47,552 nucleotides of DNA, taken from positions 1 through 47,552 of the forward strand of contig CAZYHL010000001.1 of the NCBI GenBank assembly GCA_964646795.1, read 5' to 3'. Made by a program: the position numbers and the translations under genes. The notes under the pieces are model-generated. The model did not search any database, had not been told where the DNA came from, and worked only from the letters and a program-made list of their open reading frames with translations. Each line of letters opens with the position of its first letter. Positions within the stretch are counted from its first letter, which is position 1. Shown one piece after another: positions 1-47,552 of this stretch. Source of the stretch: an uncultured Syntrophomonadaceae bacterium. Its GTDB lineage: Bacteria > Bacillota > Dethiobacteria > PWVN01.

Positions 1-55
1 AGCGTGATAACCCAGTTGGCCTTCGCATTGCTCAGAATAGCCTTTTCTCCAAACT
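1..55. repeat. terminal overlap, identical to 47498-47552 (circular closure of the contig)
   Basis: Direct comparison: the first 55 nt (agcgtgataacccagttggccttcgcattgctcagaatagccttttctccaaact) recur as the last 55 nt. An ORF stays in frame only if the two copies are merged. Confidence 0.95.
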
Positions 56-4752: not shown

Positions 4753-4782
4753 TTGACACATTAATTGCAGTAATGTTATCAT
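4753..4782 (+). promoter_or_regulatory. rightward sigma70-type promoter with extended -10 (early class)
   Basis: TTGACA-cattaattGCAGTAATGt-TATCAT (18-nt spacer). Lies about 80 nt upstream of the ATG at 4862. Confidence 0.6.
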
Positions 4783-4861: not shown

Positions 4862-5452
4862 ATGGCAACCGAACTTAATGACAAAGCAGATAGACAAAAC
4901 TTAATGTACGGTCAACTCATACGTGACTTCGATCAGCGTAGAGTTCCCAGGGAGGAACGTGGAACTTACGACATTAAACAGTTCTGGCAACGCCATCATG
5001 AAATCTGCAACCTAGCTGCCCAAGGTTACAAGCAAACAGATATTGCATACATCCTTGGGATCACTCCGCAGACAGTTTCCAACACCTTGAATTCGACATT
5101 AGGTGAAGAGAAACTTTCAGTAATCAGGGAAGAACGTGACCAAGATGCCAAGCGTACTGTGGAACGCATCCGAGTCCTTCGTGACAAAGCTCTTAAAGTC
5201 TATCAAGAGTTATTTGATGGCCAGGATGAAGATGGTAATCCTGTAGACTGTTCCATGGCTCAGCGTATCCACGCAGCTGACGTAGTCACTCTCGAACTCG
5301 CAGCTATGAAAGCCCCTACCAAGATCCAGGCCACATCCACCCACACTGTTCTCACAGGCGAAGAACTCCTTGCCATCAAGCAACGTGCCATTGATGAGGG
5401 CAAGAAGTGTGGGATGATAGTAGAAACTACCGCAGAGGAGGTCAAAGAGTGA
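4862..5452 (+). CDS. HTH DNA-binding protein (LuxR/GerE-like helix-turn-helix); regulator or small terminase candidate
   Basis: GYKQTDIAYILGITPQTVSNTL motif at about aa 55-76, followed by a charged coiled-coil region. First gene of the rightward arm. Confidence 0.5.
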   Translation: MATELNDKADRQNLMYGQLIRDFDQRRVPREERGTYDIKQFWQRHHEICNLAAQGYKQTDIAYILGITPQTVSNTLNSTLGEEKLSVIREERDQDAKRTVERIRVLRDKALKVYQELFDGQDEDGNPVDCSMAQRIHAADVVTLELAAMKAPTKIQATSTHTVLTGEELLAIKQRAIDEGKKCGMIVETTAEEVKE

Positions 5453-5892
5453 ACCAACGCACTATCGACCTCATCAAACAAAACGAAGGCTTCTCTGCCA
5501 CAGTCTATCTTTGCCCTGCAGGGTTTCATACAATAGGTTACGGCCACAACTGCGACGCTCACGGTGACCTCAATGCTTACATCAATCGCACTCTTTCTCC
5601 AGCAGAAGCTGATGATCTTCTTCTCTCCGATATAAGTGATGTTGAAAAAGATCTTACAAAATTTGTACGAACTTTTGATTCCCTAGATGAAGTACGCCAG
5701 GGTGTACTCATAGATATGTGCTTCAACTTAGGCATTGGTGGTCTGAAAAATTTCAAAAAATTTCTGAGACATTTGCTAGTTGGTAACTACAGATGGGCTG
5801 CACGTGAGATGTATGACTCTAAGTGGTTTAAGCAAGTCCCTCTTCGTGCCTCCAAGAATATGTTCATGATCCTCACAGGAGAATACTTCTAA
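5449..5892 (+). CDS. endolysin, GH24 (T4-type) lysozyme
   Basis: IDLIKQNEGFSATVYLCPAGFHTIGYGH matches the E..G..Y.D..G..TIGYGH lysozyme signature. GTG start in a GTGA overlap, preceded by GAGGAGG. Confidence 0.85.
   Translation: MNQRTIDLIKQNEGFSATVYLCPAGFHTIGYGHNCDAHGDLNAYINRTLSPAEADDLLLSDISDVEKDLTKFVRTFDSLDEVRQGVLIDMCFNLGIGGLKNFKKFLRHLLVGNYRWAAREMYDSKWFKQVPLRASKNMFMILTGEYF
5649..5673. repeat. PAL25 copy inside the endolysin CDS
   Basis: agatcttacaaaatttgtacgaact, coding KDLTKFVRT. Confidence 0.9.
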
Positions 5893-6377
5893 TGGGTGGC
5901 ATCTTGACAACCATAGGCTCTATCGCTGGAGGAGGGGTTAAAGACCTTGTCCTCGGCGTCTTAGATCGTATCAAGTTAGCCCCTGAAAAGAAGGCCGAAG
6001 TTGAACTTGCCATGGCTAACAATGCCCTCGAGTTGCAAAAGCTAGACTTCGAACTCCAGAAGAAACAACAGGACTATGAGCAATCTGTTACTGAATCTCA
6101 GAAGGCAATCATCGTAGCTGAGATGTCTCAAGGTGATGCCTACACAAAGAGAGCTCGTCCAACAATAGTCTACGCTGGTCTCGTCTTTGTAATCCTCAAT
6201 TACATAGTCCCTACCTACATGGGTTTCTTTGCAAACAAAGCAGTCCCAGAAGTCCCTATTCCTGCTGATTTCTGGTGGGTATGGGGAGGTGTTTGTGGTA
6301 CCTGGATCGTAGGCCGCTCTATGGAGCGTCGCGGTATAGGTATGTCTAAAACTACTAAATCCCTCACAGGAGTTTAA
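5892..6377 (+). CDS. holin candidate (resembles the GTA-type 3-TM holin family)
   Basis: The N-terminal LDRIKLAPEKKAEVELAM segment, coiled coil, then ARPTIVYAGLVFVILNYIV and further TM segments match my recollection of PF11351-like holins. Adjacent to the endolysin. Confidence 0.55.
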   Translation: MGGILTTIGSIAGGGVKDLVLGVLDRIKLAPEKKAEVELAMANNALELQKLDFELQKKQQDYEQSVTESQKAIIVAEMSQGDAYTKRARPTIVYAGLVFVILNYIVPTYMGFFANKAVPEVPIPADFWWVWGGVCGTWIVGRSMERRGIGMSKTTKSLTGV

Positions 6378-6683
6378 ATGTCTCATATCCTCGAAAGGTT
6401 TTTCACCCACTTTGCTGCATCGACTTTCTTAACCCTAGCATTTTTCTACGCACTTAATTATTGGCTTAGAAGAACATCCAAAGTCGGCATCTGGCTATCT
6501 TCTCGCAAAGAGCATTTATTAGTAACTTCAGCATTACTAGTCTTCTCCCTAATGACTCTTCGAGAGCCTTTCGATGTTTACTTTGGTACACAGGTATGGT
6601 ACAAAGCTATCACAGATCAAGTCTCCTGGTTCTTAGGTGCAGCAACTAGCGTATATGGCCTTTACAGATATAGTAAATCCTAA
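6378..6683 (+). CDS. multi-pass membrane protein (lysis accessory?)
   Basis: Three hydrophobic segments. AGGAG RBS. Follows the holin. Confidence 0.6.
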   Translation: MSHILERFFTHFAASTFLTLAFFYALNYWLRRTSKVGIWLSSRKEHLLVTSALLVFSLMTLREPFDVYFGTQVWYKAITDQVSWFLGAATSVYGLYRYSKS

Positions 6684-6734
6684 TGACTTAGCTAGAATTC
6701 TCCGAGTACCACACGACGAACTTTGGAAAGTTAG

Positions 6735-7190
6735 ATGAAGTCACTACTTCTTCTCCCATTCTTAGCAATTAATCTATTCGCAGGTGAAGTATGGCTAGCG
6801 TGGGATCCTTCTGAAACGTCAGAAGTTACTGGGTACAGAGTATATATAGGTACAGCTTCACGTAACTATTCTGGATTCAAAGATGCTGGAAACGCCCTCG
6901 AATACAAGGCCAAAGACCTTCCGAATGGAATAGTCCATTACTTCGCGGCGACCGCCTACGACGCCGACGGCAACGAAAGTGACTATTCCAATGAGGCCTC
7001 AACCAAAGTTATCACCTGCGACCTTAACAACGATAGTTCAGTAAATGTCCTTGATCTCCAGCTCATGATAAACCTTATCCAAACCAACCAGCTCACTCAA
7101 GCTCACGATCTTAACAAGGATAGTGTATTAAACATTCTAGATTTCCAAACTCTCATAAACGTCTTATCAGGAAAACAGTCGTGTCGATAG
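6735..7190 (+). CDS. secreted FN3 domain protein with C-terminal dockerin-like module
   Basis: Signal-peptide-like MKSLLLLPFLAINLFAGE. FN3 signature LAWDPSE..VTGYRVYIG...YFAATAYDADGNESDYSNE. Two dockerin-type repeats, DLNNDSSVNVLDLQLMINLI and DLNKDSVLNILDFQTLINVL. Confidence 0.7.
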   Translation: MKSLLLLPFLAINLFAGEVWLAWDPSETSEVTGYRVYIGTASRNYSGFKDAGNALEYKAKDLPNGIVHYFAATAYDADGNESDYSNEASTKVITCDLNNDSSVNVLDLQLMINLIQTNQLTQAHDLNKDSVLNILDFQTLINVLSGKQSCR

Positions 7191-7201
7191 GAAGTGAAAC
7201 T

Positions 7202-7474
7202 ATGGTCATAGCAAATGTTTCGTGTAGTGCAAACCCAGCTGAAGAAGCCATTACTGGGTATAACTTTTACCTCAACGGTGCAATCCAGGGAAACTCTCCC
7301 ATCCCTTCATTCACCATCGAGAATGTTCCTGCAGGGACTAATTCGTTTGAAGTCTCAGCTTTCAACCTCCTCGGGGAAGGTCCTAAGAGTGATCCATTCA
7401 TTCTGGCCGTCCCAGCAGGTGGGCCGTCCAAAACTGTCAATGTTCAAGTCACAGTGAGTGTAACCGTTTCCTAA
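7202..7474 (+). CDS. FN3/Ig-like domain protein (90 aa)
   Basis: ITGYNFYLNGA...FTIENVPAGTNSFEVSAFNLLGEGPKSDP. Start taken at the ATG at 7202 (the track gives GTG at 7181). Confidence 0.6.
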   Translation: MVIANVSCSANPAEEAITGYNFYLNGAIQGNSPIPSFTIENVPAGTNSFEVSAFNLLGEGPKSDPFILAVPAGGPSKTVNVQVTVSVTVS

Positions 7475-7788
7475 TGAAAACTATCCTGTTTGTCAATAAG
7501 GAAGTTGCTTCACTCCAATGTGACGTACTAACTTCAGGGAGGGTAACTTTGATAGTCGATGCAGCAAAAGAGAAATCAATCCAGGTTTCTCCCCTCCCTG
7601 ATGGTTTCATACGGATTATGGTATTCGGAATGAACCAGAATTTATTCTCTGGAGCTTTTGTTCACGTAGATGACTTCATCTCCTCTATCACCAATGTGGT
7701 GTGTGCAGATGCTAACGCTGGTAATGCTCACGCTGTTATTTCGAAGATATCGTCCCCAGCTAATGTTGTTGCTGAGACCGTTAAATAA
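7474..7788 (+). CDS. hypothetical beta-rich protein, tentatively cohesin-like (104 aa)
   Basis: The pattern LQCDVL..G.V / DGFIRIMVFGMNQNLFSGAFVHV / ITNVVCADANAGNAHAVI is reminiscent of cohesin beta-sandwich segments. This rests on eye-level similarity only. Confidence 0.3.
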   Translation: MKTILFVNKEVASLQCDVLTSGRVTLIVDAAKEKSIQVSPLPDGFIRIMVFGMNQNLFSGAFVHVDDFISSITNVVCADANAGNAHAVISKISSPANVVAETVK

Positions 7789-7799
7789 TTAAACGAACT
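7775..7799. repeat. degenerate PAL25 copy abutting the ATG at 7800
   Basis: agaccgttaaataattaaacgaact. The right arm and following bases (acgaactatgaa, 7793-7804) are repeated at 10683-10694. Confidence 0.5.
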
Positions 7800-8543
7800 A
7801 TGAAAATAGCCATTCACTCCATGATCCGAGATGCTTACAAGCCTTACCTAGACGAATGGCTTGCTCATCATAGGGCTTTAGGCATAGATCATTTCTTCAT
7901 CTATGATCATGATAGTGTAGAACCCTTAGCTAGAATTCTCAAAAATGCCTCAGATGTGACGGTAAAACCTATTCATGGCACACCTAGTGCAAACCTAGGC
8001 GTACATAAAACATCCTATTTAGACTTCCTTGGGCTCCTCAAAGAAGGCTACCTCCCTCATTATGATCGCGTAGCTTTCATAGACGAAGATGAGTTCATCA
8101 TCTGTTCAAATGGCAGCATAAAGGACACCTTAGCAAATTATCAAGACTGCCCTGCAATAGGCGTGAGTTGGCGCATCTTTGGCTCTTCAGGTGTGCAAAC
8201 AAGAACTCCCGAACTCCAAGCAAAGAAGTTCACTAAGCACACAAGTAGATTCTACCACTCCAACATCAATATGAAGAGTATAGTTAATCCTTACCTAGTA
8301 AAGGACTATCTATCCCCTCACTCATTTTCCTATCACTTAGGCAACGCAGTCAATGAGCATCACATAGTAATTCCATCACACTATACCTACCCCTCCTATG
8401 ACTACATCTGGATAAACCACTATTGGACACGTAGTAGGGAGGAATTCATAGTTAAAGCCGACAGAGGATTGGCTGATACAGGTGAGAAACGCGACTACTC
8501 AATGTTTGATGATGTAGAGATTAATTGTACAGAATCTATATGA
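7800..8543 (+). CDS. glycosyltransferase (GT2_4/GT92-like fold)
   Basis: YLDEWLAHHRALGIDHFFIYDHDS and FIDEDEFII (DxD-type) motifs, typical of this family. Confidence 0.65.
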   Translation: MKIAIHSMIRDAYKPYLDEWLAHHRALGIDHFFIYDHDSVEPLARILKNASDVTVKPIHGTPSANLGVHKTSYLDFLGLLKEGYLPHYDRVAFIDEDEFIICSNGSIKDTLANYQDCPAIGVSWRIFGSSGVQTRTPELQAKKFTKHTSRFYHSNINMKSIVNPYLVKDYLSPHSFSYHLGNAVNEHHIVIPSHYTYPSYDYIWINHYWTRSREEFIVKADRGLADTGEKRDYSMFDDVEINCTESI

Positions 8544-10666
8544 AGACACTATTAATAGCCCTCTACCCTTATAACGCGCAAGGCCTTGATGCCTGGCTCG
8601 ATCATTCCTCTGGAATGACCTACACAGCTGCTAAAAACGCTGGATGTGACATAGACTTCCTCGACATGAAGTCCCTCCACAACGATGAACAACTCAAGTC
8701 AGCTATGCAAGGCTACGATCTCATCGCATTCGGCCTAAAAAGCTCATACTACCCATTAGGCATGAAAGTGATTCAATTCGCTAAAGCTCAAGGATCTAAA
8801 ACCATCGTAGGAGGATACCACGCTACTGCAGCTCCCGAGGAGCTTCTCGAAAACCCACTTATCGACTACGTCTTCCACAAAGAAAGTGAACTAACTTTCC
8901 CTCAATTTCTGCTTAACCCTGCCCAATTCCCCAGGGAAATCTTCGGCGAGTCTGTACAAAATTTGGACGAACTACCATTCATGGACCGTTCTATGTTCCG
9001 CAGTCCACTAGAACCAGTCCTTTCCTGGTGGCATGGCGGACAGAGGGCATTCATGACTTCCATCATCACTAGTCGTGGATGCCCTTATCGCTGTGCTTTC
9101 TGCCAGCCAATAGAAGATAATCACTTTGGGAAGAAACTTAGACGTAGGAGTGTAGATTCAGTAATTGAAGAACTTGCACTTCTCAAGTACTTATACAATC
9201 CAGACTGCTTAATGATCCATGATGATACCTTTCTACTCCAACGTAACTGGCTTGAAGAATTCATAGAGAAGTATCCTCAAATAGGTCTCCCTTTCTGGGC
9301 TGCGGGACGTGCAGATGGAATCATCAAGTATGAAGACTTGGTTCGTAAATTAGTAAATGTAGGCTGGGAACTCATCTCTGTCGGCTTCGAAAGTGGCTCT
9401 CAAAAAATCCTCAACAAGATGAAGAAGGATACCACTGTCGAGCAAAACCTCGAAGCTGCTCGCATCATCAAGTCCACTGGAGCAAAGATATATGCCAACT
9501 ATATGCTTGGCCTTCCTTGGGAAACCAAAGCAGATGTTCAAGCTACAATGTCCATGGCTGACGCCATCGATGCAGAGATGCCTTCATGGGCCTACTTCAC
9601 TCCCTACCCTGGCTGCGAACTTGCCAACGAGATCAACGAGAACAACTGGTCCCTCCTCGACCGAAACAACTACTATCGTCTTCCTTCAGGTGAAAAGGTA
9701 ACTAATGTCGACTACTCTTATCTTCTCTCGTGTCTTAGAGGATTCAGGGAATCCAGGCCTGCACTACTTACAGACATTATCATTCCAACCTATGAAAATG
9801 AACAACTCACAGTGGATTGCTTTGAATCTATCAAGGCTTCTACTACTCCAGGAACTTATCGAATCATCTGGGTGGACAACGGATCTAGAAACTTCGAGTT
9901 GGCTAAACGAGCTATTAGAGATATAGAGCATTTATCATACAGGTTTGACACTAATCAAGGTTTCGTAGTTGCAGTAAACAAAGGCCTCACTCTCAGCGAC
10001 GCACCTACAGTAATGCTCCTCAACAACGACACTCGCGTGTACAAAGGGTGGCTAGACAAACTCATTCGTATCCTCTGGTCCGACGAGAAGATTGGCATTG
10101 TAGGCCCACTAACAGGCTATGCACCTCCAAGCAAAGAAGACTCTCCTCATTGCCTTAATCTCCACAAAGATCTTCTCCCTCCTGAGGCTCGAGAGTGGAA
10201 CTTTGAAAAGCTTAATGAAGCATTAGAGAATGGCTACACTGGTCGTACTGCAGAAGCACCATTCGTAGCTTTCCTCGCAGCACTCATTCGTCGAGAAGTA
10301 ATCAACGTCATAGGCCCTCTTGACACCAACTTCAAACACGGAATGTGGGATGATGTTGACTATAATCGTAATGTAAGGAACATAGGCTACAAGTGCCTCT
10401 ATGCCCTTGACACAGTAATCTACCATCGTGGGCGCAGCACTTTTAACATGATAGAAAAAGAGGAAGGCTTCAATGTAGGCAAGCTCCTTGCCACAAACAA
10501 AGAGTACCTTGATCGCAAGTGGAATGATAACGTAGTGCTTGGTGTACCTAAGAAATCCATAACAGCTTCTCCAACTCTGAGCATACTAACTCGTCGTAAC
10601 TCCTGGCGAAGTCGTATAGAAAAGCCTAAATTCGTAACTGATTACGATAAGCCTAAAGACCTATAG
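8540..10666 (+). CDS. fusion protein: B12-binding-like domain + radical SAM core + GT2 glycosyltransferase (708 aa)
   Basis: ATGA overlap start. N-terminal Rossmann-like segment (DLIAFGLKSS...TIVGGYHATAAPEELL). CxxxCxxC cluster GCPYRCAFC (nt 9080-9103). C-terminal IIIPTYENE...IIWVDNGS...LLNNDT...WDDVDY GT2 motifs. Confidence 0.8.
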   Translation: MKTLLIALYPYNAQGLDAWLDHSSGMTYTAAKNAGCDIDFLDMKSLHNDEQLKSAMQGYDLIAFGLKSSYYPLGMKVIQFAKAQGSKTIVGGYHATAAPEELLENPLIDYVFHKESELTFPQFLLNPAQFPREIFGESVQNLDELPFMDRSMFRSPLEPVLSWWHGGQRAFMTSIITSRGCPYRCAFCQPIEDNHFGKKLRRRSVDSVIEELALLKYLYNPDCLMIHDDTFLLQRNWLEEFIEKYPQIGLPFWAAGRADGIIKYEDLVRKLVNVGWELISVGFESGSQKILNKMKKDTTVEQNLEAARIIKSTGAKIYANYMLGLPWETKADVQATMSMADAIDAEMPSWAYFTPYPGCELANEINENNWSLLDRNNYYRLPSGEKVTNVDYSYLLSCLRGFRESRPALLTDIIIPTYENEQLTVDCFESIKASTTPGTYRIIWVDNGSRNFELAKRAIRDIEHLSYRFDTNQGFVVAVNKGLTLSDAPTVMLLNNDTRVYKGWLDKLIRILWSDEKIGIVGPLTGYAPPSKEDSPHCLNLHKDLLPPEAREWNFEKLNEALENGYTGRTAEAPFVAFLAALIRREVINVIGPLDTNFKHGMWDDVDYNRNVRNIGYKCLYALDTVIYHRGRSTFNMIEKEEGFNVGKLLATNKEYLDRKWNDNVVLGVPKKSITASPTLSILTRRNSWRSRIEKPKFVTDYDKPKDL
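8949..8973. repeat. PAL25 copy inside the radical-SAM/GT2 CDS
   Basis: agtctgtacaaaatttggacgaact, coding ESVQNLDEL. Confidence 0.85.
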
Positions 10667-26865: not shown

Positions 26866-27714
26866 ATGAGTATGGGTGGAAAAGGTAATCCTCAGTATAC
26901 TGAGTCGAAGATAAGGTATGCCCCTTACGTTGAGGATCATCATCAGACTTTGCTGGATTCAGTGCAAGCATTAGTGCAGAGTACTGCAGCTGATAATCCT
27001 TATGAAGGATACACAGATGTAGAAATCGAGAGTGCCTTCTTTGGGACAGGGTATCTGCTAAGTTCATTCCCGTCACTGTATGATATGTATGGGAAGTTCA
27101 TGGCAGGACTAGATCTTGAAGTGTTGTTTGATGAGATATTGGAAGACTCTATTAATGGCCCTGTACTTGATGACAATATAGCAGCTCAAGGAGTAGCTCT
27201 TCAAGATGATATAGAAACTGTTCAGCTTCCAGAGTTTGAAGCAGGGATGAGGGATATTAATGCAGTGAATTCTAGTTCGTTTGTTATAGGGAAGGCACTC
27301 ATTGCTGCTTCAAGAACGAAGTCACTTGCTTCGTATAGCGCTAATCTTCGTACTAAGATGCTCCCAGTAGCAGAAGATAGATTTGCACGACACCTTGAGT
27401 GGAATAGAAGTGTTATTGATGCATACTCGCAGATATTGAAACTATACATTTCCGCCAAGATGGATGTGGATAGTCATAACTTGGAGATTGATTCCAGGAG
27501 GTCTGTGTGGGCACTTTCGATGTGGAAGTATGATATGGATGCTTTGGGTGTACTACAACATGCTATTAATGAACGTACAGATCAACACAAGAATAAAGTT
27601 GCTGGCGCACTTGGTGGGGCATTGAGTGGGGCTGCTGCAGGAAGTATGATAGCTCCTGGAATAGGTACAGGGATTGGGGCAGCTGTAGGTTTAATAGGTG
27701 GATTATTTTCCTAG
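26866..27714 (+). CDS. internal virion protein candidate with C-terminal glycine-zipper membrane segment
   Basis: C-terminus GALGGALSGAAAGSMIAPGIGTGIGAAVGLIGGLFS. Confidence 0.5.
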   Translation: MSMGGKGNPQYTESKIRYAPYVEDHHQTLLDSVQALVQSTAADNPYEGYTDVEIESAFFGTGYLLSSFPSLYDMYGKFMAGLDLEVLFDEILEDSINGPVLDDNIAAQGVALQDDIETVQLPEFEAGMRDINAVNSSSFVIGKALIAASRTKSLASYSANLRTKMLPVAEDRFARHLEWNRSVIDAYSQILKLYISAKMDVDSHNLEIDSRRSVWALSMWKYDMDALGVLQHAINERTDQHKNKVAGALGGALSGAAAGSMIAPGIGTGIGAAVGLIGGLFS

Positions 27715-27722
27715 GAGGAATT

Positions 27723-28859
27723 ATGGCTTATAATGACTTTGGTATAGCAGGGCCGTTTACAGGTGGAGGTGGAGGTGGGTTCCTTGAAGGATTAGGGAAC
27801 TTGTTTAAGGATAAACAGTTTCTATCTTACTTGTCTGCGTTAGGTGCAGGGATAGCAGGGCCTAATAGTACTGCTAGTGCATTAGATACTAGAACTCAAC
27901 AGAATATACAGACACAGAACTATTCCTCATTGTTAGGTAAAATTCTAGGTGGAGAGATGCCTGGATATAGTTTATCAGTTGATGACAAAGGACTTACTAT
28001 GAAAGCTCAGAGGTCCACTCCTATTGGAGAATTAGGACCTAATCCAGGACAGACTGGGATTGAGCCTTTGCAAATGGATAGTCCTCAGCCAAAGATGGAT
28101 AAATACACAGGAGACCCTGCAAGCCCTTTCGCACTTGGCCAGCTTAATTTAACTGCATCTGATCTAGCTGGCCTTACTCCTGAATTGATTAGTAATTTGA
28201 TGCAGTTGAAGATGGCTAAAGATGAGCAAGTTGCGAATAGAGAATCTGCCGCAACTGAAAGAGACTACAAATCCAAGTTGATGCAGAAGATTGATGCTGA
28301 GATTGCAGCGGAAGCTGAGAATAGAAAGCTGCGTGGGGCTGAGGCTGATAATGATGCAGAGAAAAATCGCATAGCTTGGTATAAAGCTCAAAATCCTGAT
28401 AAGCCTGCTGATCAGTTGATGTATGAGTATGACGTTAAGTTTAATGGATTCAAAGGATCTATTAAAGACTGGAAGGATAAGGAGCCTAATGAACCTGCTG
28501 AGATGAGAATGTTGAATAGGGCTATGACTGATCCTGCATTTAAGAAGATCATGATAGAGATGAGGAGGGCAGGAGCGACGAATGTTAATATTAGCCCAGG
28601 TGAGAAGGTAATGCAGGAGGGGCTGGCGAAGGATAAGTTAACTGTGCTTGATCCGGACTTTGCTGACAATGTGAGGAAGCAAGTTGACAGTGGAGTTATA
28701 GCTATGCCTGAAGCAGAGTTGAAGCCTAAAGTAGTTAATGCTATGGGAGCTAAGATCAGGTCAGTTTTTGGAGATAAGAATGTAACTCCAGTGCAGGGCG
28801 GATGGATAGTTAAAGATCCTGATTCTAAAAGAGAGTACTTCATTAGAGGGCCTCAGTAA
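27723..28859 (+). CDS. internal virion protein candidate (378 aa)
   Basis: AGGAGG RBS. Gly-rich N-terminus, charged coiled-coil middle. Precedes the giant protein. Confidence 0.5.
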   Translation: MAYNDFGIAGPFTGGGGGGFLEGLGNLFKDKQFLSYLSALGAGIAGPNSTASALDTRTQQNIQTQNYSSLLGKILGGEMPGYSLSVDDKGLTMKAQRSTPIGELGPNPGQTGIEPLQMDSPQPKMDKYTGDPASPFALGQLNLTASDLAGLTPELISNLMQLKMAKDEQVANRESAATERDYKSKLMQKIDAEIAAEAENRKLRGAEADNDAEKNRIAWYKAQNPDKPADQLMYEYDVKFNGFKGSIKDWKDKEPNEPAEMRMLNRAMTDPAFKKIMIEMRRAGATNVNISPGEKVMQEGLAKDKLTVLDPDFADNVRKQVDSGVIAMPEAELKPKVVNAMGAKIRSVFGDKNVTPVQGGWIVKDPDSKREYFIRGPQ

Positions 28860-31800
28860 TGGATGATGCTGAAATTGTCTTAGGAAAGAAGACTGCTTCT
28901 CAACAAAGTGATGCTGATATAGTCCTAGGTAAACAACCTGCCCCTATTCAACCTACCCCTCCAAAGGAAGAACCTGGCTTTTTCTCTAAGCTGGGTTCTT
29001 CTATTATGGATGTAGCAGGGAAGTTAGGTGCAGATAGGATTGAGGCTCAGAATAGAGAGGCTGAAATATTGAGAGCTAATCCTCCAAAGCTTCCATCATT
29101 TACTGGTTCACCTATTACATCCAAAGACTATGGCCCTCTTGAGAAGAATGTACTTCTAAATATCTTTGGAGTTCTTCCTTATGAAAGAGAAGGAGCTTAT
29201 ATAGCTCAGACTACGAAGAGTAACTTTTCAATGAGTGCATTGAAACCTGCACAAGCAAAGGAGATATTGTCTAAACCTTTACCTCCTCCAGAGTATACAG
29301 GGAGCAAAGGCGAACAACTACTTGCTACATTCGCAGGGAACGCTGCTGAAGGATTGATTAGAACTGCTACATTTGGTATGTTAGGCGGAGTGGCTCCTAC
29401 TCCTCAGGGAATTACTGGTGAGGTTCCAGTAGGTATAGCAGGACAGATTACTGGAGCTTTTCCTAGCTTACTGTTAATAGGCCAAGGGTTTCATTTAGTA
29501 ACTAATGCCATTGTCAAAGGGTTACCTACAGGAATAAAGAATATAACTGAGGCGGCTATTAAGTTGGGATTCACAACTGATATGCTTAATAACGCGTTGA
29601 ACAACTCAGTTAACTTCGCTAATTCTGTAAAGGCTGGAGATACTAGAGGGATGATAGATAGTGGATCTGGAGTATTGATAGATTCACTATTCTCATTCTT
29701 GATTGCCAAAGGTTTGCCAGAGGATGCTAGGAAGATTGCAGACTTTAGGAAGAATAGATCTGCAGGGGGATCTTTCTTTGATGCTTCTAGCACACTTAAA
29801 GCTGCGGCTGAAAAGAAGTCTGTAGAACCTGAAGTAAAGAAGGAGATGGCAACTACGAATCAGAAAATAGTTCGTACAAAAAATGTACGGACTAAAGAGG
29901 AACCACAGCTAGAGCCTGATGAGTTTGATGAACTCCTTGCTCCGATGAAGGAAGACCTCAACAAGTTAAAAGACTGGTCTGATTATCCCAAGGATGAGGA
30001 AGTTGCTAAGGCGGTAGGAAAGCCAGTTGAGGAAGTAACTATTGAGGATACTAAGAGTGTTGTAGAGGAGGATCTGAATGAGATTGATTTTGAGCTAGGG
30101 AAGCCTGAGCCGGTAGAGATGAGGAATGAGAGTAGCCCTTTCAGGCAAGAAAAGGATGTTACCAAGGCACAGTTGAATAATTATAGAAGGAATCCAGTAG
30201 TTGCTAACACATATGAGGAGTTGACGAGTACAGATCCTGAGAATTATAAGAGTGCTGCGATTACTGCACGTAAGCTAGTTGCTGACTTCAACGCTTATTT
30301 GGATGGGGAGAAGGTTGATGTAACTAAGACACAAGAGATGGCTAGTAGGATGGCTGCCCAGCCTAATGACTTCGAGTGGCAGTTTATAGATGAGAAGGGA
30401 AGAGTTGATGAGGAAGGATTTAAAGAGTTTAGTACATATGTAAGTGACGCTGCTAAGTGGATGAGACAGGCACAGAAGCCTGGATTGGGGACATCACTAC
30501 ATTTTGGCTTGCCTATTGATGAAGCTTATCAGATGATGAAGCCTTGGTTTAGTTCACTTAGGAAATATGCTGAGGAGAAGTTACCTAAGATTGCTAGTGC
30601 AGAGCAGATACTTGCGACGTTGAGGAAAGGGAGTACTAAGGACGAATGGGAGAATGTAGGGCTTGAAGGAGTGTTGGAGAAAGGGAGGAAGTATAGTAGA
30701 GAGGAAATAGGGAAGATCATTGATGAAGGTAGTGTGGAGTTGAAGGATGTAGAACTTTCATATAGAAAAGATCAAGATCCATCTGATCCATACGATGAAG
30801 ATTCCTTTACTCCCAAATTCTCCTCCTACGTCGAACCTGGAGGGAGTAATTATAAAGAGTTGTTTGTGACGGCTCCTGAGAGGACTACTAGTGTAGATAT
30901 AACTAGAGAATCATTTGATTCTGTTAGATCGTATTTAAGCCAGTCTACTAGAGATGAGTTATGGAATAAGTATCAGAGTGGTGAGCTTACCCCTAATGAA
31001 TTAGTTCCTAATGGGCCTTCATGGCAAGACGGCCACGCTGACTACTCAGACATAGAAAATCCTGTTGTTAGATTAAGGATGAATGACAGAGTTGATAGTG
31101 AAGGAAAGAAAGTACTATTCCTAGAAGAAGTTCAACCACCTAATCCATCTGAACAAGAGAAGATGCCAGCCTATCTACAGAAGAGGTGGAGAGAGATAGG
31201 GATGAAGCGCGCCTTGAAGTATGCCATAGATAATGGCTATGACAAGGTGGCGTGGACTACTGGGGAGATGCAAGCGAAGAGGTATTCGTTAGATCAAACT
31301 ATCTCTGATATAGTCTATCATGATGCTACCAGTGGTGGTGTAGGATTACCTAATTTAGACGCTGAAGAGACGGGGGGAGTTCTTAAAATTAGATCTACTG
31401 ATGGAAGAATAATATATGATAGATATACAAACGTAGAAGAATTATCTAATATTATAGGAGAAGAAGCCACTGATAGATTATTATCCGCTAAGCCTAGGTC
31501 AGTTAGAACAGGTTCTGGATTAAATTCTAGAGAGAGGGCACTAACTGGACAAAATCTAGTAATGGAAAACAAAGGCCTCCGCAAACTCTACGACCAAGAC
31601 ATCCCTAATGTGGTGAAGAAGTTGGGAGGGGAGGTAGGAGAGTCTAATGTAAGATTTAAAGACTATCTTAAAGAGAGAAAGTATGTAGGTCCTGAACATG
31701 ATATAGAGTCTCTTCAGCACTTTATAAAAAATAATAGATTAGATGCTAGTGATGAGATGACTATAAAGGGTATTATAGAGGCTCTAAAACAAGATAGAAA

Positions 31801-34800
31801 TTTTGATAGAGTAATGTATGACTATGGAAGTGATAGTGTAGCTAGATTATTAGGAGGTAAATTTGTAGATAACCCTTCTTCAACTAAGGTCCAATCAGTC
31901 TCCCTCCAACCTCTCAAATCCAAAGCTTCAGGTGGGTTTAGTTTATATAGTGGAGTGCCTGTTGATAGACTAGAATCCTTAGGCAAAGACCTCACTAATT
32001 ACTACAAACGTCTCAGTGAAGCAAAGAGTAAGTCTATTGCTGAGATGTTTAGAGAGGCTAAGAAGATAGGTATAGCACACTGGTTAAATCAAAGTGGGAA
32101 TGCACGAGCACTTATAGAAGCAGAAGGTGATAAAGCTAAGGAGGTATTACAAGCTACAGCATTAGCAAGAGGTGGGCATTCCCTAGCAATTGCAAGATAT
32201 AAGCAAGCAGATAAGGAAGTCAATAGTGGACTGTCTAAAGCAGAGCAAGAGGCTAAAGATAGACTTATTATGGCCGAGCGTGTGCTGGCAGTTAATAAGA
32301 CTTCGCCTAAGACAATTAAGAATGTTCCGAAGGCATTCTCAGTAGAGAATAGTACTGATATTATAAATGCTATTGGCTCAAAGAAGATCAATGGTTCAGA
32401 AGATCTTACTCCTCAAGCAGAGTTGTTAGTTCGCAAAGCTAAGGATACTTACTTTGATGCAAATAGACAAGCTACTAAGGATCTTGCAGATGAGGGGATT
32501 ATAGGTCGTCAAGAGGAGAGGGATTTAGTAGCTAATAATTATGCAAAGTTTAGTCCAGTTACTAAACAGACAATAGACAAGATAACTGGGAATAGTGGAG
32601 TAGGCAGAACAAGCCAAGGGGCGTTTGATCCACTTAAGAGAATTAAAAAGGGTGGAAATGATGAGGTATTGTTGGAGACTAACTCAAGACTAACAATGCT
32701 TGAGTATTTTGATCAGGTATACACAGCTATTGCGATTAATAGAGCTAAGAGAACAATGGCTGACTTTGCTAAGAGTACTCCGGAGAATAAGTTTTCGTGG
32801 GTGGATACTTCGAAAGTGAAAGTGCTTGATGCTCAACCTAGTGATGTTACAGGATTGAAGAGAAGTATTAAGATCAAGAGATATGAGCAAGGAGTTAGTG
32901 ACTATGAGTTTAGGCAACTATTAAAAGCTAATGGGATAAAAGAGAAGTTTAGTGCTACTAAGAATATTACAGCATTGAGAGCTGTAGATAAGGCACTTGG
33001 GGATGTATCCAAGGGATATGAGAAAGTACTTACGCATCCTAAAGGTTGGGTTAGAGACTATTATCTTGAAGATGGAATTAAGAAAGAGATGTGGTTGGAA
33101 CCTTCGTTTGCTAAAGAATGGATGGCTGAGACGAAGGAGACTTCAGGGGCGTTTGCGAAGTTTGTGAGAGTGTTTAGTGGATCGCAGATAGTTAAGTTAT
33201 TCGCTACTGGCATTAATCCTGCATTTGCAATAGCTAATTTACCAAGGGATGCCGTGCATGCTTGGTTTGCTTCCAGAGTTATGGAAGGTGATAAGTGGAA
33301 GAGTTTGTATAGTATGAGGGCTCCTAGAGCTGTAGGACAGATGGCTAGAGATTATAAGGACGTATTTGTAGATGTAATGAAGGAGAAGGGAGTTATTGAC
33401 GACTTCATTGAAGATGGAGGAGGAAGTAACTATCTTTATACGCAGGGTAGGCTAACAGATGTTAATGCTAAGAATAGAGTTAGACTTGAAGGCCCATTTG
33501 ATGCCCTATATGACTTCATGAGTGGAATCAACAGACGCTCTGAAATGCTCACGAGGATGGCTATAAGAAATAGAGTTATCCGAATGAGGGCTAAGGAACA
33601 AGGCTTGACAGTGGAGCAGGCTAAGAAGGATCCTAAGATTCGTAGAGAGGCTTCGTTTGCAGCTATTGATCAGATGAACTTTGGTGAAGGTGGGTCTATA
33701 GCTAAAGCACTTGATAATGCCATACCTTATTTAAAGGCAAGGATTGTAGGTACTAGATCGTTGTGGAGAGTATTTGAACCTGGGAGTGGGACAGCTAAAG
33801 CATCAGCAGTAAAGTTAGGGCAATTTGCTGCTTTAGTTACTGGACTGTATCTATTGAATAGGCAGAGAAATCCTCAAGCTATAGATGATCTCAGGGATGA
33901 TCCTAGATCTAAGAACTCTTTTACACTTGTGATGGGAAAAGATGCAGGTGTTACAGTTGATGGTCAAAAGAGGCATGTATTCTTTAGAGCACCTTTGGAT
34001 TCTGGACAGGCGTTCTTCAAAGTACTATTCGAATCCATAGCAGGTAAAATGCTTGGGGATGAAATAGATCCTACAAAAATTGTACGGTCTTTGAAAGATG
34101 CACTTCCGGCAGATATTAGTAATTTGCCTCCCACAGCGCAGGGGCTGATAGGGTATTATACAAATACTAACATATGGTCAGGTAATGAAATATGGAAGGG
34201 GTATGAAGGGCCTATTCCTTACAAGCCTCCTCAATGGATGACTGGGGATAAGGTGGGAGGGAGTAATCTGGAGTACACAAAAAGGACACCTGAGATATAT
34301 AAAGACCTTGGTGATCTGACTGGCCTTAGTCCTGAGAGGTTAGGTTATGTGATACAGAGTTATTTAACTAATGATAATCTCTATTCTCAGTTGACTTTTA
34401 GTATGTATGACAAGATCTTTCATGGATTAGATGATGATCAGAAGAAACAGTTGTTAGCTGAGTCTATATCAAGATACCCAGGAACGAAGAGGTTCTTTGG
34501 GTTAACTAATCCAGCCTCCCAGGATATAAAGAAAGCTGAAGAGATTAACTGGAGGAGAATAGGGATTAAGGCAGAGCAGAATCAAGAGCTTGATAGGCTG
34601 TTAGATAGTTACCTTGCAGGTGGGAAGGTTACAGGAAAAGAGATAAATGAGTTCATTAGTAAACAACCTGACAAAGCAGACCAGGAGAGGTTAGCAGAGG
34701 ATGTGAAGAAGACTATGTCCTTGAAAGACTTACCTAGTGCAGGTTGGTGGAGAAAGCTGATGAAGATGGACTCACAGGGAAGAGCAGAGGCATTTGTTGA

Positions 34801-36831: not shown

Positions 36832-36994
36832 TTTGTTTTCTCCTTATGTTGTGTTTCTGAGCGATTGAGTTTCTGCAACTTAAACAAAATAATCCTGATG
36901 CATGTTTAGAAGGTTTGCATAATGATAAGCCGCCGCACCTATCGCAGCTATATAGTTGATTCTTTAGCACTTTGGGTGGCTCTGAGCGTCCCAT
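36788..36994 (-). CDS. possible overlapping 68-aa zinc-ribbon ORF bridging the PolA-MazG gap
   Basis: ATG at 36994 with GGAGGAA 5 nt upstream. The CDRC...CLSC motif is encoded exactly in the 116-nt gap. It overlaps the PolA 3' end by 47 nt and the MazG 5' end by 44 nt. Confidence 0.4.
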   Translation of the reverse strand: MGRSEPPKVLKNQLYSCDRCGGLSLCKPSKHASGLFCLSCRNSIAQKHNIRRKQNVLRRSREESNSVG

Positions 36995-39476: not shown

Positions 39477-39486
39477 TTTCTTCTCC

Positions 39487-39511
39487 AGTTTATACAAAAT
39501 TTGTAGGAACT
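39487..39511. repeat. PAL25 copy (intergenic)
   Basis: agtttatacaaaatttgtaggaact. The right end overlaps the minus-strand TAG stop at 39510-39512. Lies 10 nt upstream of the PolA ATG. Confidence 0.9.
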
Positions 39512-47307: not shown

Positions 47308-47552
47308 TTACTTCATCAATTCCTGGATGAACGCCTTCCGCTGTTCAGGAGTCAAGGTCTTCATGAAAGCGATAGCATTGGCCTTAGGATCAGCCGCAAT
47401 CTTAGCAGAAGCGACGCCCATTTTGGAAGCGCCAAGATCAGCCTGGATTTGATCCTGCGATTGGCCCTTCTTAAGTCGAGAGCGCATATTGCCCTGCAGC
47501 GTGATAACCCAGTTGGCCTTCGCATTGCTCAGAATAGCCTTTTCTCCAAACT
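47308..47552 (-). CDS. C-terminal part of the junction-spanning 127-aa gene (see 1..194)
   Basis: TAA stop at 47308-47310. Bases 47498-47552 duplicate 1-55. Confidence 0.7.
   Translation of the reverse strand, partial: FGEKAILSNAKANWVITLQGNMRSRLKKGQSQDQIQADLGASKMGVASAKIAADPKANAIAFMKTLTPEQRKAFIQELMK

What the first reader, a model, noticed from the sequence alone, without database searches (positions are those of the whole stretch)
6735..7788. Secreted FN3-dockerin protein, a second FN3 protein and a possible cohesin-like partner encoded side by side in a phage
ORF 6735..7190 has a signal-peptide-like N-terminus, a clear FN3 domain and two dockerin-type calcium-binding repeats (DLNNDSSVNVLDLQLMINLI and DLNKDSVLNILDFQTLINVL). 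The next ORF is a stand-alone FN3-like domain. The third (7474..7788) is a small beta-rich protein whose segment pattern is reminiscent of cohesin modules. A dockerin/cohesin pair carried by a virus would be a self-contained tethering system, for example anchoring a phage product to the cell surface or to the virion. Even the dockerin alone is unusual for a phage late operon. The cohesin call is weak.
Basis: partly seen in the sequence, partly recalled or inferred. Interest (0 to 1): 0.6.

Follow-up and report, generated by a model that had tools for sequence, protein, structure and literature searches.

The report
Phage-encoded dockerin and mini-cohesin pair
A complete 47.5-kb phage genome carries an exported "plug" protein (FN3 + dockerin) right next to a shrunken "socket" (a ~100-residue cohesin relative), and this gene pairing recurs in at least 17 phage and Acidobacteriota loci, so phages seem to have borrowed the cellulosome's plug-and-socket coupling, though binding has not been tested.

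Summary

- **ORF1 (6735-7190):** signal peptide, FN3 and a dockerin that passes Pfam's threshold (38.7 bits against 22.9). It has two intact D-x-N-x-D...D calcium loops and a conserved bracketing cysteine pair.
- **ORF2 (7202-7474):** FN3-like, with a conserved C-terminal beta-strand tail.
- **ORF3 (7474-7788):** gets no Pfam hit. Its family profile matches Pfam-validated cohesins at 98.3% HHalign probability (E 2e-14). Its AlphaFold model (pLDDT 95) has cohesins as its six best PDB matches. It lacks about 18 N-terminal residues, which is strand 1.
- **Co-occurrence:** in 17 independent loci a dockerin gene sits directly upstream of a cohesin or cohesin-like gene.
  - Seven loci have the small trio.
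  - Three have fusions: one to ORF2, one to a tail protein, one to a connector-type protein.
  - Seven are cellular loci, mostly Acidobacteriota, with a large secreted cohesin-FN3 protein.
- **Export:** the plug always has an export signal. The phage socket usually does not.
- **Best reading:** a phage-captured, miniaturised cohesin-dockerin pair that clips exported adhesion modules onto a phage-made socket, probably on the virion.

Binding, location and role are all untested. I found no published phage cohesin-dockerin pair.

The parts
4753..4782 (+). Promoter-like site (TTGACA-18-TATCAT with extended -10 TG) ahead of the long + strand block that holds the lysis genes, the trio, the glycosyltransferases and the structural genes
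   Evidence: 11 of 12 matches. The total count of promoter-like sites in the region is no higher than in shuffles, so only this site stands out. No convincing terminator lies between 4862 and 10666.
5407..5892 (+). Endolysin (context: lysis cassette just upstream of the trio)
   Evidence: Pfam Phage_lysozyme E 1.2e-16; phrog_7 endolysin E 4.9e-26
5892..6377 (+). Holin (context)
   Evidence: Pfam GTA_holin_3TM E 1.3e-22; phrog_3427 holin. L002 has the same holin family upstream of its trio.
6378..6683 (+). Small hydrophobic protein of unknown role between holin and trio (context)
   Evidence: No family hit. A similar 116-aa protein sits at the same position in L002.
6735..6785 (+). ORF1 signal peptide (residues 1-17, MKSLLLLPFLAINLFAG)
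   Evidence: Hydropathy heuristic. An N-terminal hydrophobic segment ending in an A-x-A-type site is conserved in 15 homologues. SignalP was not run.
6786..7016 (+). ORF1 FN3 domain (residues 18-94)
   Evidence: Pfam fn3 residues 18-89, only 13.5 bits here. PF00041 is precomputed on most full-architecture homologues. Conserved LAWD...GY.VY...YYFAVTA.D..GNES.YSNE core.
7017..7190 (+). ORF1 dockerin (residues 95-151 plus stop). Two calcium-loop/helix repeats (DLNNDSSVNVLD..., DLNKDSVLNILD...) bracketed by C95 and C150
   Evidence: Pfam Dockerin_1 38.7 bits, above the 22.9 cut-off; 41.3 bits in the six-frame genome search. N98, D100, D107, Q109, D125, D129, D136 and Q138 are invariant, and C95 and C150 are >=90% conserved.
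7202..7474 (+). ORF2: FN3-like domain, no export signal (alternative start GTG 7181)
   Evidence: Gene callers give 90 aa; SD AGGAAG before ATG 7202. Orthologues in L002, L003, L009, L013, L019, L024 and L098. L009 orthologue scores fn3 24.0 bits.
7430..7471 (+). ORF2 C-terminal beta-strand tail (KTVNVQVTVSVTVS), the candidate donor of the cohesin's missing strand 1
   Evidence: An alternating-hydrophobic tail after a Pro/Gly/Ser linker is conserved in all orthologues. In the natural fusion P0167 the equivalent segment is a beta strand (pLDDT 74-84) leading into the cohesin-like module. There is no sequence-level support: shuffled tails score the same.
7474..7788 (+). ORF3: mini-cohesin, a cohesin-like beta-sandwich lacking strand 1, with no export signal. 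Its start overlaps the ORF2 stop (TAATG).
   Evidence: Family of 72 cluster representatives. HHalign 98.3%, E 2.2e-14 against 7 cellular cohesins, 4 of them above Pfam's Cohesin cut-off. AF2 pLDDT 95.3, pTM 0.82. Foldseek PDB ranks 1-6 are all cohesins. The ORF3 profile maps inside Pfam Cohesin stretches of P0159 and P0123, starting ~16 residues in.
7800..10666 (+). Two glycosyltransferase genes just downstream: GT92/GT2-like, then a B12-radical-SAM + GT2 fusion (context; any link to the trio is unproven)
   Evidence: Pfam. The radical-SAM/GT2 fusion also follows the trio in L002 but not in L003, L009 or L013.

Best explanation
ORF1, ORF2 and ORF3 are a phage-carried, miniaturised copy of a two-gene cohesin-dockerin cassette. 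The cellular form of that cassette, found here mainly in Acidobacteriota, is a small secreted FN3-dockerin protein followed by a large secreted cohesin-FN3 protein.

Shown:
- ORF1 has a signal-peptide-like leader, an FN3 domain and a bona fide dockerin with two intact calcium loops and a conserved cysteine pair at its two ends.
- ORF3 is a homologue of cohesin modules that has lost strand 1 and several loops.
- ORF2 is an FN3-like domain with a conserved beta tail, and is tightly coupled to ORF3.
- The order 'dockerin gene, then cohesin-like gene' is conserved in 17 loci.

Inferred:
- ORF1 is exported by Sec. Outside the cytoplasm it binds Ca2+ and forms a C95-C150 disulfide clasp.
- Its dockerin plugs into the ORF3 socket.
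- ORF2 pairs with ORF3, possibly by donating its tail as the missing strand. Together they rebuild the FN3-cohesin unit that exists as a single chain in P0167.
- The phage socket has no export signal, and in two other phage lineages it is the N-terminal domain of a tail or connector-type protein. Plug and socket would therefore meet only when the cell lyses.
- The most likely role is to clip exported FN3 modules (FN3+CBM in a relative) onto a phage-made socket, probably on the particle, as accessory adhesion modules.
For: Dockerin: Pfam 38.7 bits against 22.9; calcium-loop residues invariant and the Cys pair >=90% conserved in 15 homologues.

Cohesin homology of ORF3:
- HHalign 98.3%, E 2.2e-14 to cohesins that pass Pfam's threshold.
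- The ORF3 profile hits the multi-cohesin protein P0159 at E 9e-12, inside its Pfam Cohesin stretches.
- AF2 pLDDT 95.3; the six top PDB fold matches are cohesins, and cohesins top the list again for the fusion model.

Adjacency of the dockerin gene and the cohesin(-like) gene:
- Small trio: window, L002, L003, L009, L013, L019, L024.
- Fusions: L010/L011, L012 plus a 28-kb JGI contig, and the ENA contig of P0146.
- Cellular form: L005, L008, L017, L020-L023.
- Sources.

Self-containment: one dockerin, no cohesin above cut-off and no second copy of any module in the binned genome.

Virion link: P0127 is the mini-cohesin fused to a phrog_376 tail-protein domain, inside a tail-gene block. P0146 is the mini-cohesin fused to a phrog_12985 / adaptor-Ad3-like domain, near a P22-type Phage_stabilise gene. 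Each is directly preceded by an FN3-dockerin gene.

ORF2-ORF3 unit: the natural fusion P0167, the AF2 model, and close coupling in 8 loci.

Export asymmetry.
Against: - Pfam's Cohesin model gives no hit on ORF3 or its three closest orthologues, even at E<=10.
- The family profile finds no solved cohesin by sequence.
- Foldseek E-values are only ~0.02 with TM ~0.5 and rmsd 5-6 A.
- No complex prediction or binding test was possible.
- The strand-donation idea has no sequence support. The local profile alignment never enters the tail and shuffled tails score the same. P0127 and P0146 have a mini-cohesin without any ORF2.
- Plug and socket lie in different compartments until lysis, which is an awkward arrangement. 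In L010 the socket (P0167) does have a signal peptide, so one localisation model does not fit all loci.
- Nothing shows that ORF2 or ORF3 of this phage is in the virion. P0127's tail domain has no relative in the window.
- The host is unresolved.
Confidence: 0.62

Rival explanations
1. Host-directed mimicry. The phage modules do not mainly bind each other but plug into the host's own cohesin-dockerin surface system. The exported ORF1 would dock on the host's large cohesin protein, masking or re-tooling the surface, for example for superinfection exclusion or to keep progeny off debris. Alternatively, the phage mini-cohesin, on the tail in some lineages, would bind dockerin-bearing host surface proteins as a receptor.
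For: The closest named relatives of ORF1 are cellular Acidobacteriota proteins (41-48% identity) encoded next to large secreted cohesin proteins. Cellular copies lie beside exopolysaccharide genes: Bac_transf, UDP-glucose dehydrogenase, exosortase/EpsI. The plug is always exported, as host dockerin proteins are. Tail and connector fusions place the socket where a receptor-binding module would sit.
Against: The phage always carries both partners side by side, which is not needed if the targets are host proteins. The binned genome has no cohesin above threshold and no other dockerin, although the bin is unreliable. The phage mini-cohesins form their own diverged family, about 27% column identity and no Pfam hit, rather than close copies of host cohesins.
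Confidence: 0.17
2. Envelope or matrix complex of the infected cell, with no virion involvement. The trio is a moron-like cassette expressed with the lysis and glycosyltransferase genes. It assembles a small FN3-rich complex in the periplasm, at the cell surface or in the lysate. That complex would act on the cell wall or exopolysaccharide, for example by anchoring to glycans made or modified by the neighbouring glycosyltransferases.
For: The trio lies directly after the lysis genes in the window, L002, L003 and L010. It lies before glycosyltransferases in the window and L002. In L010 both partners have signal peptides and the plug carries a CBM_4_9 carbohydrate-binding module.
Against: ORF2 and ORF3 lack export signals in the window and the six other trio loci. 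The glycosyltransferase neighbourhood is not conserved in L003, L009 or L013. Two lineages fuse the socket to virion proteins.
Confidence: 0.13
3. No docking at all. ORF1-ORF3 are independent small beta-sandwich proteins of the Ig/FN3 decoration type. The dockerin is only a calcium-stabilised module and the cohesin resemblance is a remnant with no binding function.
For: FN3 and Ig-like domains are common on phage particles (established knowledge). Many non-cellulosomal dockerins have no known partner. ORF3 fails Pfam's Cohesin model, and fold scores are modest.
Against: The strict conservation of the order 'dockerin gene, then cohesin-like gene' over 17 loci, through fusions, fissions and transfer between cells and phages, is hard to explain without a joint function. 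Profile homology to true cohesins is strong.
Confidence: 0.08

Closest known systems
Non-cellulosomal cohesin-dockerin pairs, e.g. Clostridium perfringens glycoside-hydrolase/toxin complexes (cohesin 2jh2, 2vo8; cohesin+FN3 double module of GH84C, 2w1n) and the Archaeoglobus fulgidus cohesin (2xdh)
   Same: These are the best structural matches to the ORF3 model. They are single cohesins, not scaffoldin arrays, combined with FN3 modules and used outside cellulose degradation. The pairing of a cohesin with an FN3 module echoes ORF2+ORF3, P0167 and the Acidobacteriota cohesin-FN3 proteins.
   Different: Those cohesins are full 9-strand modules of ~135-140 residues that Pfam recognises, embedded in large enzymes of cellular organisms. 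Here the socket is a ~100-residue stand-alone protein lacking strand 1. It is not recognised by Pfam, is encoded by a phage, and has no export signal.
Type I cohesin-dockerin of clostridial cellulosomes (Pfam PF00963 / PF00404; e.g. C. cellulolyticum 1g1k, 2vn5/2vn6)
   Same: ORF1's dockerin passes the PF00404 model and has the duplicated 12-residue calcium loop plus helix. Cellulosomal cohesins appear among the fold matches. The logic is the same: a plug on a cargo protein and a socket on an anchor.
   Different: There is no scaffoldin with multiple cohesins and no enzymes. The cargo is FN3, or FN3+CBM in L010. The recognition positions 10-11 are hydrophobic (V-L / I-L) instead of the Ser-Thr I recall for C. 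thermocellum. A disulfide, rather than stacking contacts, appears to clasp the module's ends (my inference from C95/C150 conservation).
Acidobacteriota two-gene cassette: secreted FN3-dockerin (~140-215 aa) followed by a secreted cohesin-FN3-large C-terminal protein (710-1290 aa). Undescribed in the literature I could search.
   Same: It holds the closest sequence relatives of both ORF1 (41-48% identity) and ORF3 (HHalign 98.3%). Gene order is the same and the plug has the same FN3+dockerin architecture with a Cys pair.
   Different: In the cellular form the socket is a complete, exported cohesin at the N-terminus of a very large protein, followed by FN3. In the phage the order is FN3 then cohesin, split into two small polypeptides without export signals.
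Virus-encoded dockerin domains reported in viruses from alkane-oxidising enrichments (ISME J 2026, PMC13452462)
   Same: A viral contig has a signal-peptide protein next to dockerin domains, and the authors propose cell-surface adhesion roles.
   Different: No cohesin partner is reported there. The proteins are NosD-like or S-layer-like and related to ANME archaea, not FN3-dockerin.

Membership tests
Dockerin type I (Pfam PF00404) | Match to the family HMM above the curated gathering score | tested here: met
   38.7 bits against 22.9, E 1.1e-9, residues 96-144 covering profile 3-56 of 57; 41.3 bits in the six-frame search
Dockerin type I (Pfam PF00404) | Two tandem ~22-residue repeats, each a 12-residue EF-hand-like calcium loop (Asp/Asn at positions 1, 3, 5, 9, 12) followed by a helix | tested here: met
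   Read directly from the sequence: DLNNDSSVNVLD and DLNKDSVLNILD, each with D1 N3 D5 N9 D12. These residues are invariant or nearly so in 15 homologues.
Dockerin type I (Pfam PF00404) | Calcium-dependent binding to a cohesin | not testable with these tools
   No multimer prediction or wet-lab assay was available
Cohesin (Pfam PF00963) | Match to the family HMM above the gathering score (24.1 bits) | tested here: not met
   No hit for ORF3 at E<=1, nor for the L002, L003 and L009 orthologues at E<=10
Cohesin (Pfam PF00963) | Homology to recognised cohesin modules | tested here: met
   HHalign of the 51-sequence ORF3 family against 7 cellular cohesins: 98.3% probability, E 2.2e-14. Four of the seven pass Pfam Cohesin at 25.8-43.3 bits. 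The family profile also hits P0159, which has 7 Pfam Cohesin stretches, inside those stretches. It gives no hit to solved cohesins by sequence alone.
Cohesin (Pfam PF00963) | Nine-stranded flattened beta-sandwich (jelly-roll) of ~140 residues | tested here: inconclusive
   The AF2 model is all-beta with 8 strands in 104 residues (pLDDT 95.3). Foldseek ranks 1-6 are cohesins at probability 0.99-1.00, but E is 0.016-0.06, TM 0.46-0.52 and rmsd 5-6.5 A. About 16-18 N-terminal residues (strand 1) are absent.
Cohesin (Pfam PF00963) | Binds a dockerin on its 8-3-6-5 face | not testable with these tools
   Only indirect evidence: gene adjacency in 17 loci
Fibronectin type III (Pfam PF00041) | HMM match above the gathering score (25 bits), for ORF1 and ORF2 | tested here: not met
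   ORF1 scores 13.5 bits and ORF2 has no hit. At family level, most ORF1 homologues carry PF00041. The L009 ORF2 orthologue scores 24.0 bits. The ORF2-like half of P0167 matches CbhA FN3-like modules by fold (3pe9, probability 1.00, TM 0.60 on the target). So both are FN3-like by family and fold, though not by their own score.
Sec-type cleavable signal peptide (ORF1) | Positively charged n-region, hydrophobic h-region, A-x-A-type cleavage site | tested here: inconclusive
   Heuristic only: K2, a 10-mer of mean hydropathy 2.57, and an A-G/E site. The leader is conserved, with clearer A-x-A sites, in homologues. SignalP was not available. The conserved Cys pair fits an oxidising compartment (inference).
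Cellulosome | Scaffoldin with several cohesins that organises dockerin-tagged carbohydrate-active enzymes | tested here: not met
   One dockerin and one mini-cohesin in the phage, and none elsewhere in the bin. No enzyme domain on ORF1-ORF3.

The most novel reading that the evidence does not exclude
Tailed phages of soil and sediment bacteria use a cohesin-dockerin plug-and-socket to finish their particles outside the cytoplasm. A socket made in the cytoplasm is a mini-cohesin, either free and completed by a donor strand from the FN3 protein ORF2, or fused to a tail or connector protein. On lysis it captures calcium- and disulfide-dependent FN3 or FN3-CBM adhesion modules that had been exported beforehand. 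The virion thereby gains exchangeable glycan-binding tips. This would be a new mode of modular, post-lysis virion decoration, and the first natural split cohesin.
Probability: 0.22. Interest if true: 0.85.

Novelty: new variant of a known kind. Interest (0 to 1): 0.68.

Why it matters
Cohesin-dockerin is the classic high-affinity protein coupling of cellulosomes and is widely used as a protein-engineering tool. I could find no description of a natural phage-encoded pair.

This finding matters for four reasons.
1. It defines a family of ~100-residue mini-cohesins (72 clusters at 50% identity) that Pfam does not recognise.
2. It shows that these travel with FN3-dockerin genes between Acidobacteriota-type cells and phages, and that they are fused to tail or connector proteins in some phages.
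3. It suggests that phages can attach exchangeable adhesion modules non-covalently, which bears on how host range and matrix binding evolve in soil phages.
4. It offers a very small socket/plug pair, and possibly a split socket, for synthetic biology.

The cellular cassette in Acidobacteriota is itself uncharacterised.

Tried and rejected
- **Pfam on ORF3 and its orthologues:** no Cohesin hit even at E<=10.
- **Profile search of PDB sequences with the ORF3 family:** no cohesin found.
- **Word-indexed homologue searches for ORF3 and ORF2:** only the window and L002 copies were found. The exhaustive profile search was needed.
- **ORF2 tail as cohesin strand 1 at sequence level:** I joined each tail to its own ORF3 in silico and ran HHalign against cellular cohesins. 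The local alignment never entered the tail, and 20 shuffled-tail controls scored the same. This gives no support, so the idea is kept only as a hypothesis.
- **Programmed frameshift or read-through fusing ORF2 and ORF3:** rejected. Spacing (0, +8, +15, +19 nt) and relative frame differ among 8 loci, and there is no shared slippery site.
- **ORF1 as lipoprotein or spanin:** no conserved lipobox.
- **Relative of P0127's or P0146's virion domain in the window:** none found by tblastn.
- **Host assignment:**
  - The bin's L4 protein clusters with a 'Bacillota bacterium' protein.
  - The bin is heterogeneous (contig GC 0.30-0.70), the phage contig is a tetranucleotide outlier, and there are no spacer-like matches. 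The host is left open.
- **DNA-level similarity to deposited phages:** none.
- **L024, a trio inside a 199-kb Terriglobia contig:** its neighbourhood is not recognisably prophage.
- **Tool failures:**
  - The search for related loci failed on the diverse alignments A3 (viral contigs) and A4 (genome contigs).
Full report
**What is in the window**

The 47,552-base window is a whole contig whose first and last 55 bases are identical. That is the usual sign of a circular assembly, so this is a complete phage genome. It encodes:
- a large terminase, an SU10-type portal and major capsid protein;
- a lysis cassette;
- on the other arm, a family A DNA polymerase fused to a UDG domain, a methylase, a ligase and nucleases.

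There is no DNA-level match to deposited phages.

One strong promoter-like site at 4753-4782 precedes the long + strand block. No convincing terminator separates the genes from 4862 to 10666. In order, those genes are:
1. an HTH protein;
2. endolysin (5407-5892);
3. holin (5892-6377);
4. a small membrane protein (6378-6683);
5. the three ORFs of the finding;
6. a GT92/GT2-like glycosyltransferase;
7. a B12-radical-SAM/GT2 fusion;
8. the terminase.

**ORF1 (6735-7190)**

- Pfam Dockerin_1 matches residues 96-144 at 38.7 bits (cut-off 22.9, E 1.1e-9).
- The two repeats read DLNNDSSVNVLD and DLNKDSVLNILD. Each has Asp/Asn at loop positions 1, 3, 5, 9 and 12, followed by a helix-forming stretch.
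- Pfam fn3 is below threshold in this copy (13.5 bits).
- A search of 5.8 billion proteins found about 15 small proteins (140-170 aa) with the same full-length architecture. Most of them have both PF00041 and PF00404 on record.
- Their alignment shows a conserved hydrophobic leader ending in an A-x-A-type site and a strongly conserved FN3 core.
- It also shows invariant calcium-loop residues and two cysteines (C95, C150) that bracket the dockerin and are at least 90% conserved.
- From the leader plus the cysteine pair I infer Sec export and an extracytoplasmic disulfide clasp. SignalP was not available, so only a hydropathy heuristic was run.

**ORF2**

- The likelier start is ATG 7202, preceded by AGGAAG. 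It ends in TAA, whose last base is the A of ORF3's ATG.
- It has no significant Pfam hit of its own.
- It has orthologues in seven other loci. The L009 orthologue scores fn3 at 24.0 bits (cut-off 25).
- All orthologues share an FN3-like core, a Pro/Gly/Ser linker and an alternating-hydrophobic C-terminal tail (KTVNVQVTVSVTVS here).

**ORF3 (7474-7788): the cohesin question**

- Pfam finds nothing, and the word-indexed search found only one relative.
- A profile of three orthologues, searched exhaustively against 1.84 billion cluster representatives, found 72 proteins at E<=1e-3. Most are stand-alone proteins of about 100 residues.
- The same profile also hit multi-domain proteins. Pfam annotates several of these with Cohesin domains: P0159 (seven Cohesin stretches), P0182 and P0183.
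- Mapping shows that ORF3 position 3 aligns to P0159 residue 1181, while Pfam's Cohesin position 2 aligns to residue 1165. The offset is the same in P0123. ORF3 therefore starts about 16 residues into a cohesin.
- With a 51-sequence alignment, AlphaFold2 gives an all-beta model at mean pLDDT 95.3 and pTM 0.82.
- Foldseek against the PDB ranks six cohesin entries first: 2xdh, 2jh2 chains A, B and C, 2vo8 and 2w1n. Probability is 0.99-1.00. The scores are modest: E 0.016-0.06, TM 0.46-0.52.
- The ORF3 family profile was compared with an alignment of seven cellular cohesins. Four of those pass Pfam's Cohesin threshold (25.8-43.3 bits). HHalign gave 98.3% probability and E 2.2e-14.
- In that alignment ORF3 residues 9-87 align to cohesin residues 27-121.

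I conclude that ORF3 is a true but truncated cohesin homologue. It lacks strand 1 and has shortened loops. It fails Pfam's own model, and it does not match solved cohesins by sequence alone.

**Gene neighbourhoods**

The strongest evidence for a functional pair is conservation of gene order.

| Form | Loci |
|---|---|
| Small trio: FN3-dockerin, ORF2-like, mini-cohesin | window; L002 (73% identical ORF1; after an M15 endolysin and the same holin family; before the same radical-SAM/GT2 fusion); L003 (a 102-kb IMG/VR viral contig; after a holin-like and spanin-like block); L009; L013 (a 38-kb IMG/VR contig); L019 and L024 (Acidobacteriota/Terriglobia MAGs) |
| ORF2-ORF3 pair on a contig too short to show more | L098 |
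| Socket fused to ORF2 | L010/L011: a signal-peptide FN3-CBM_4_9-dockerin protein directly followed by P0167, a single chain of signal peptide, ORF2-like FN3, tail strand and mini-cohesin |
| Socket fused to a tail protein | L012 and a 28-kb JGI contig: a signal-peptide FN3-dockerin directly followed by P0127 (mini-cohesin + phrog_376 tail-protein domain), inside a tail-gene block |
| Socket fused to a connector-type protein | An ENA contig: an FN3-dockerin directly followed by P0146 (mini-cohesin + phrog_12985 / adaptor-Ad3-like domain), near a P22-type Phage_stabilise gene |
| Cellular form: large secreted cohesin-FN3 protein | L005, L008, L017, L020, L021, L022, L023. The FN3-dockerin gene is directly followed by, and often overlaps, a 710-1290-aa protein with a signal peptide, a complete N-terminal cohesin and an FN3/Pur_ac_phosph_N module |

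That makes 17 distinct loci. The contigs without the pair are either cut too short to show it or, for P0012's locus, have a downstream gene whose product could not be examined. In a scan of 185,579 species genomes, full-length FN3+dockerin matches came only from Acidobacteriota/Terriglobia MAGs. Several cellular copies lie next to exopolysaccharide genes.

**Self-containment**

The binned genome holds one dockerin (the phage's), no Pfam Cohesin above threshold, and no further copy of any of the three modules. This argument is weak, for two reasons:
- The bin is labelled Bacillota through its L4 protein, but it is compositionally heterogeneous, with contig GC from 0.30 to 0.70.
- The phage contig is a tetranucleotide outlier and there are no spacer-like matches.

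The host is therefore unresolved. The single-domain endolysins and the spanin-like pair in L003 point, by inference only, to diderm hosts.

**How ORF2 and ORF3 relate**

ORF2 and ORF3 are separate polypeptides. Across eight loci the junction spacing is 0, +8, +15 or +19 nt, the relative frame varies, and there is no shared slippery site.

Three observations suggest they form one FN3-cohesin unit:
- The P0167 fusion exists naturally.
- The missing strand 1 falls exactly at the gene boundary.
- The ORF2 beta tail is conserved.

In the AF2 model of P0167 (mean pLDDT 84), the tail segment (residues 97-101) is a strand at pLDDT about 74-84. It runs through a tight turn into the mini-cohesin, which has pLDDT 97-98. 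A disordered linker separates it from the FN3 domain. Cohesins again top the fold search with this model.

Sequence gives no support for the tail being strand 1. Local HHalign does not extend into the tail, and shuffled tails score the same. P0127 and P0146 also have mini-cohesins without an ORF2. I rate strand donation at about 40-50%.

**Mechanism**

Shown:
- the domain identities;
- homology to cohesin and dockerin;
- the conserved gene order;
- the export asymmetry: the plug always has a leader, and the phage socket has none except in P0167;
- fusion of the socket to virion proteins in two lineages.

Inferred:
- ORF1 is exported and matures with Ca2+ and a disulfide.
- ORF2 and ORF3 stay in the cytoplasm.
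- Plug and socket meet at lysis.
- Exported FN3 modules (FN3+CBM in L010) are thereby clipped to a phage-made socket, probably on the particle, where they would serve as accessory adhesion modules.

Rival readings are host-directed mimicry (docking onto, or recognising, the host's own cohesin-dockerin surface system), an envelope or matrix complex unrelated to the virion, and no docking at all. None is excluded.

**Comparison with what is known**

- **Closest structures:** non-cellulosomal cohesins of C. perfringens and A. fulgidus.
- **Closest sequences:** the uncharacterised Acidobacteriota cassette.
- **Literature:** full-text searches found no natural phage cohesin-dockerin pair.
  - One 2026 paper reports viral dockerin domains next to a signal-peptide protein, but no cohesin.
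- **Earlier notes of this scan (unchecked):**
  - e1-3295112 and e1-3295113 describe another soil phage with an exported dockerin-tagged enzyme, a tail-fibre cohesin and Acidobacteria relatives. This agrees with the pattern found independently here.
  - e1-3355165 covers the neighbouring radical-SAM/GT2 genes.

**Verdict**

This is a new variant of a known kind: a cohesin-dockerin pair in a phage, with a new mini-cohesin family. Physical binding, localisation and biological role all remain untested.

Noticed in passing
window 1-55 and 47498-47552: Exact 55-bp terminal direct repeat, the typical signature of a circular assembly. The contig is a complete ~47.5-kb phage genome that was binned into a bacterial MAG.
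   Followed up: partly
window 8525-10666 (and 7800-8543): A 713-aa fusion of a B12-binding domain, a radical-SAM domain and a GT2 glycosyltransferase, preceded by a GT92/GT2-like enzyme. The fusion is conserved right after the trio in L002. The scan's note e1-3355165 already covers it. Whether its sugar product is linked to the FN3/cohesin proteins is unknown.
   Followed up: no
G000 (whole bin): The MAG that holds the window is compositionally heterogeneous: contig GC ranges from 0.30 to 0.70 and the phage contig is a tetranucleotide outlier. Its L4 protein clusters with a 'Bacillota bacterium' protein. The phage's dockerin and cohesin relatives point instead to Acidobacteriota. The bin should not be used for host assignment.
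   Followed up: partly
L008, L017, L020-L023 (Acidobacteriota/Terriglobia MAGs): An uncharacterised cellular cassette. A secreted FN3-dockerin (~140-215 aa; duplicated in tandem in L021) is followed by a 710-1290-aa secreted protein with an N-terminal cohesin, an FN3/Pur_ac_phosph_N module and a large C-terminal region (DUF5719 in P0123). It often lies near exopolysaccharide or exosortase genes.
   Followed up: partly
L003 9267-10026: An overlapping gene pair that looks like an i-spanin/o-spanin set. One is a 151-aa protein with an N-terminal membrane segment and a coiled coil. The other is an out-of-frame overlapping ORF with a signal sequence ending in LLLC. The pair lies directly upstream of the trio in a 102-kb viral contig that also encodes a protein of more than 4000 aa with an SNF2-type helicase domain.
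   Followed up: no
window 4862-5452 and L002 174-776: A conserved ~196-200-aa HTH protein (weak GerE/HTH_23 hits and weak small-terminase PHROG hits) opens the late block just before the endolysin in both phages. It overlaps the endolysin start in the window. It could be a late regulator or a small terminase.
   Followed up: no
window 36948-39497 (-): The family A DNA polymerase carries an N-terminal uracil-DNA-glycosylase-superfamily domain in the same 849-aa ORF.
   Followed up: no
window 28859-34963: A 2034-aa ORF at the end of the structural arm has no Pfam hit at all. It follows a protein with weak similarity to the P22 gp7 ejection protein (26866-27714).
   Followed up: no
P0190 (291 aa): A cellular protein that combines, in one chain, a signal peptide, a full-length ORF3-family cohesin-like module, a weak dockerin (18.4 bits) with a Cys pair, and a TIG domain. 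Having a socket and a plug on one polypeptide might allow chain formation.
   Followed up: no
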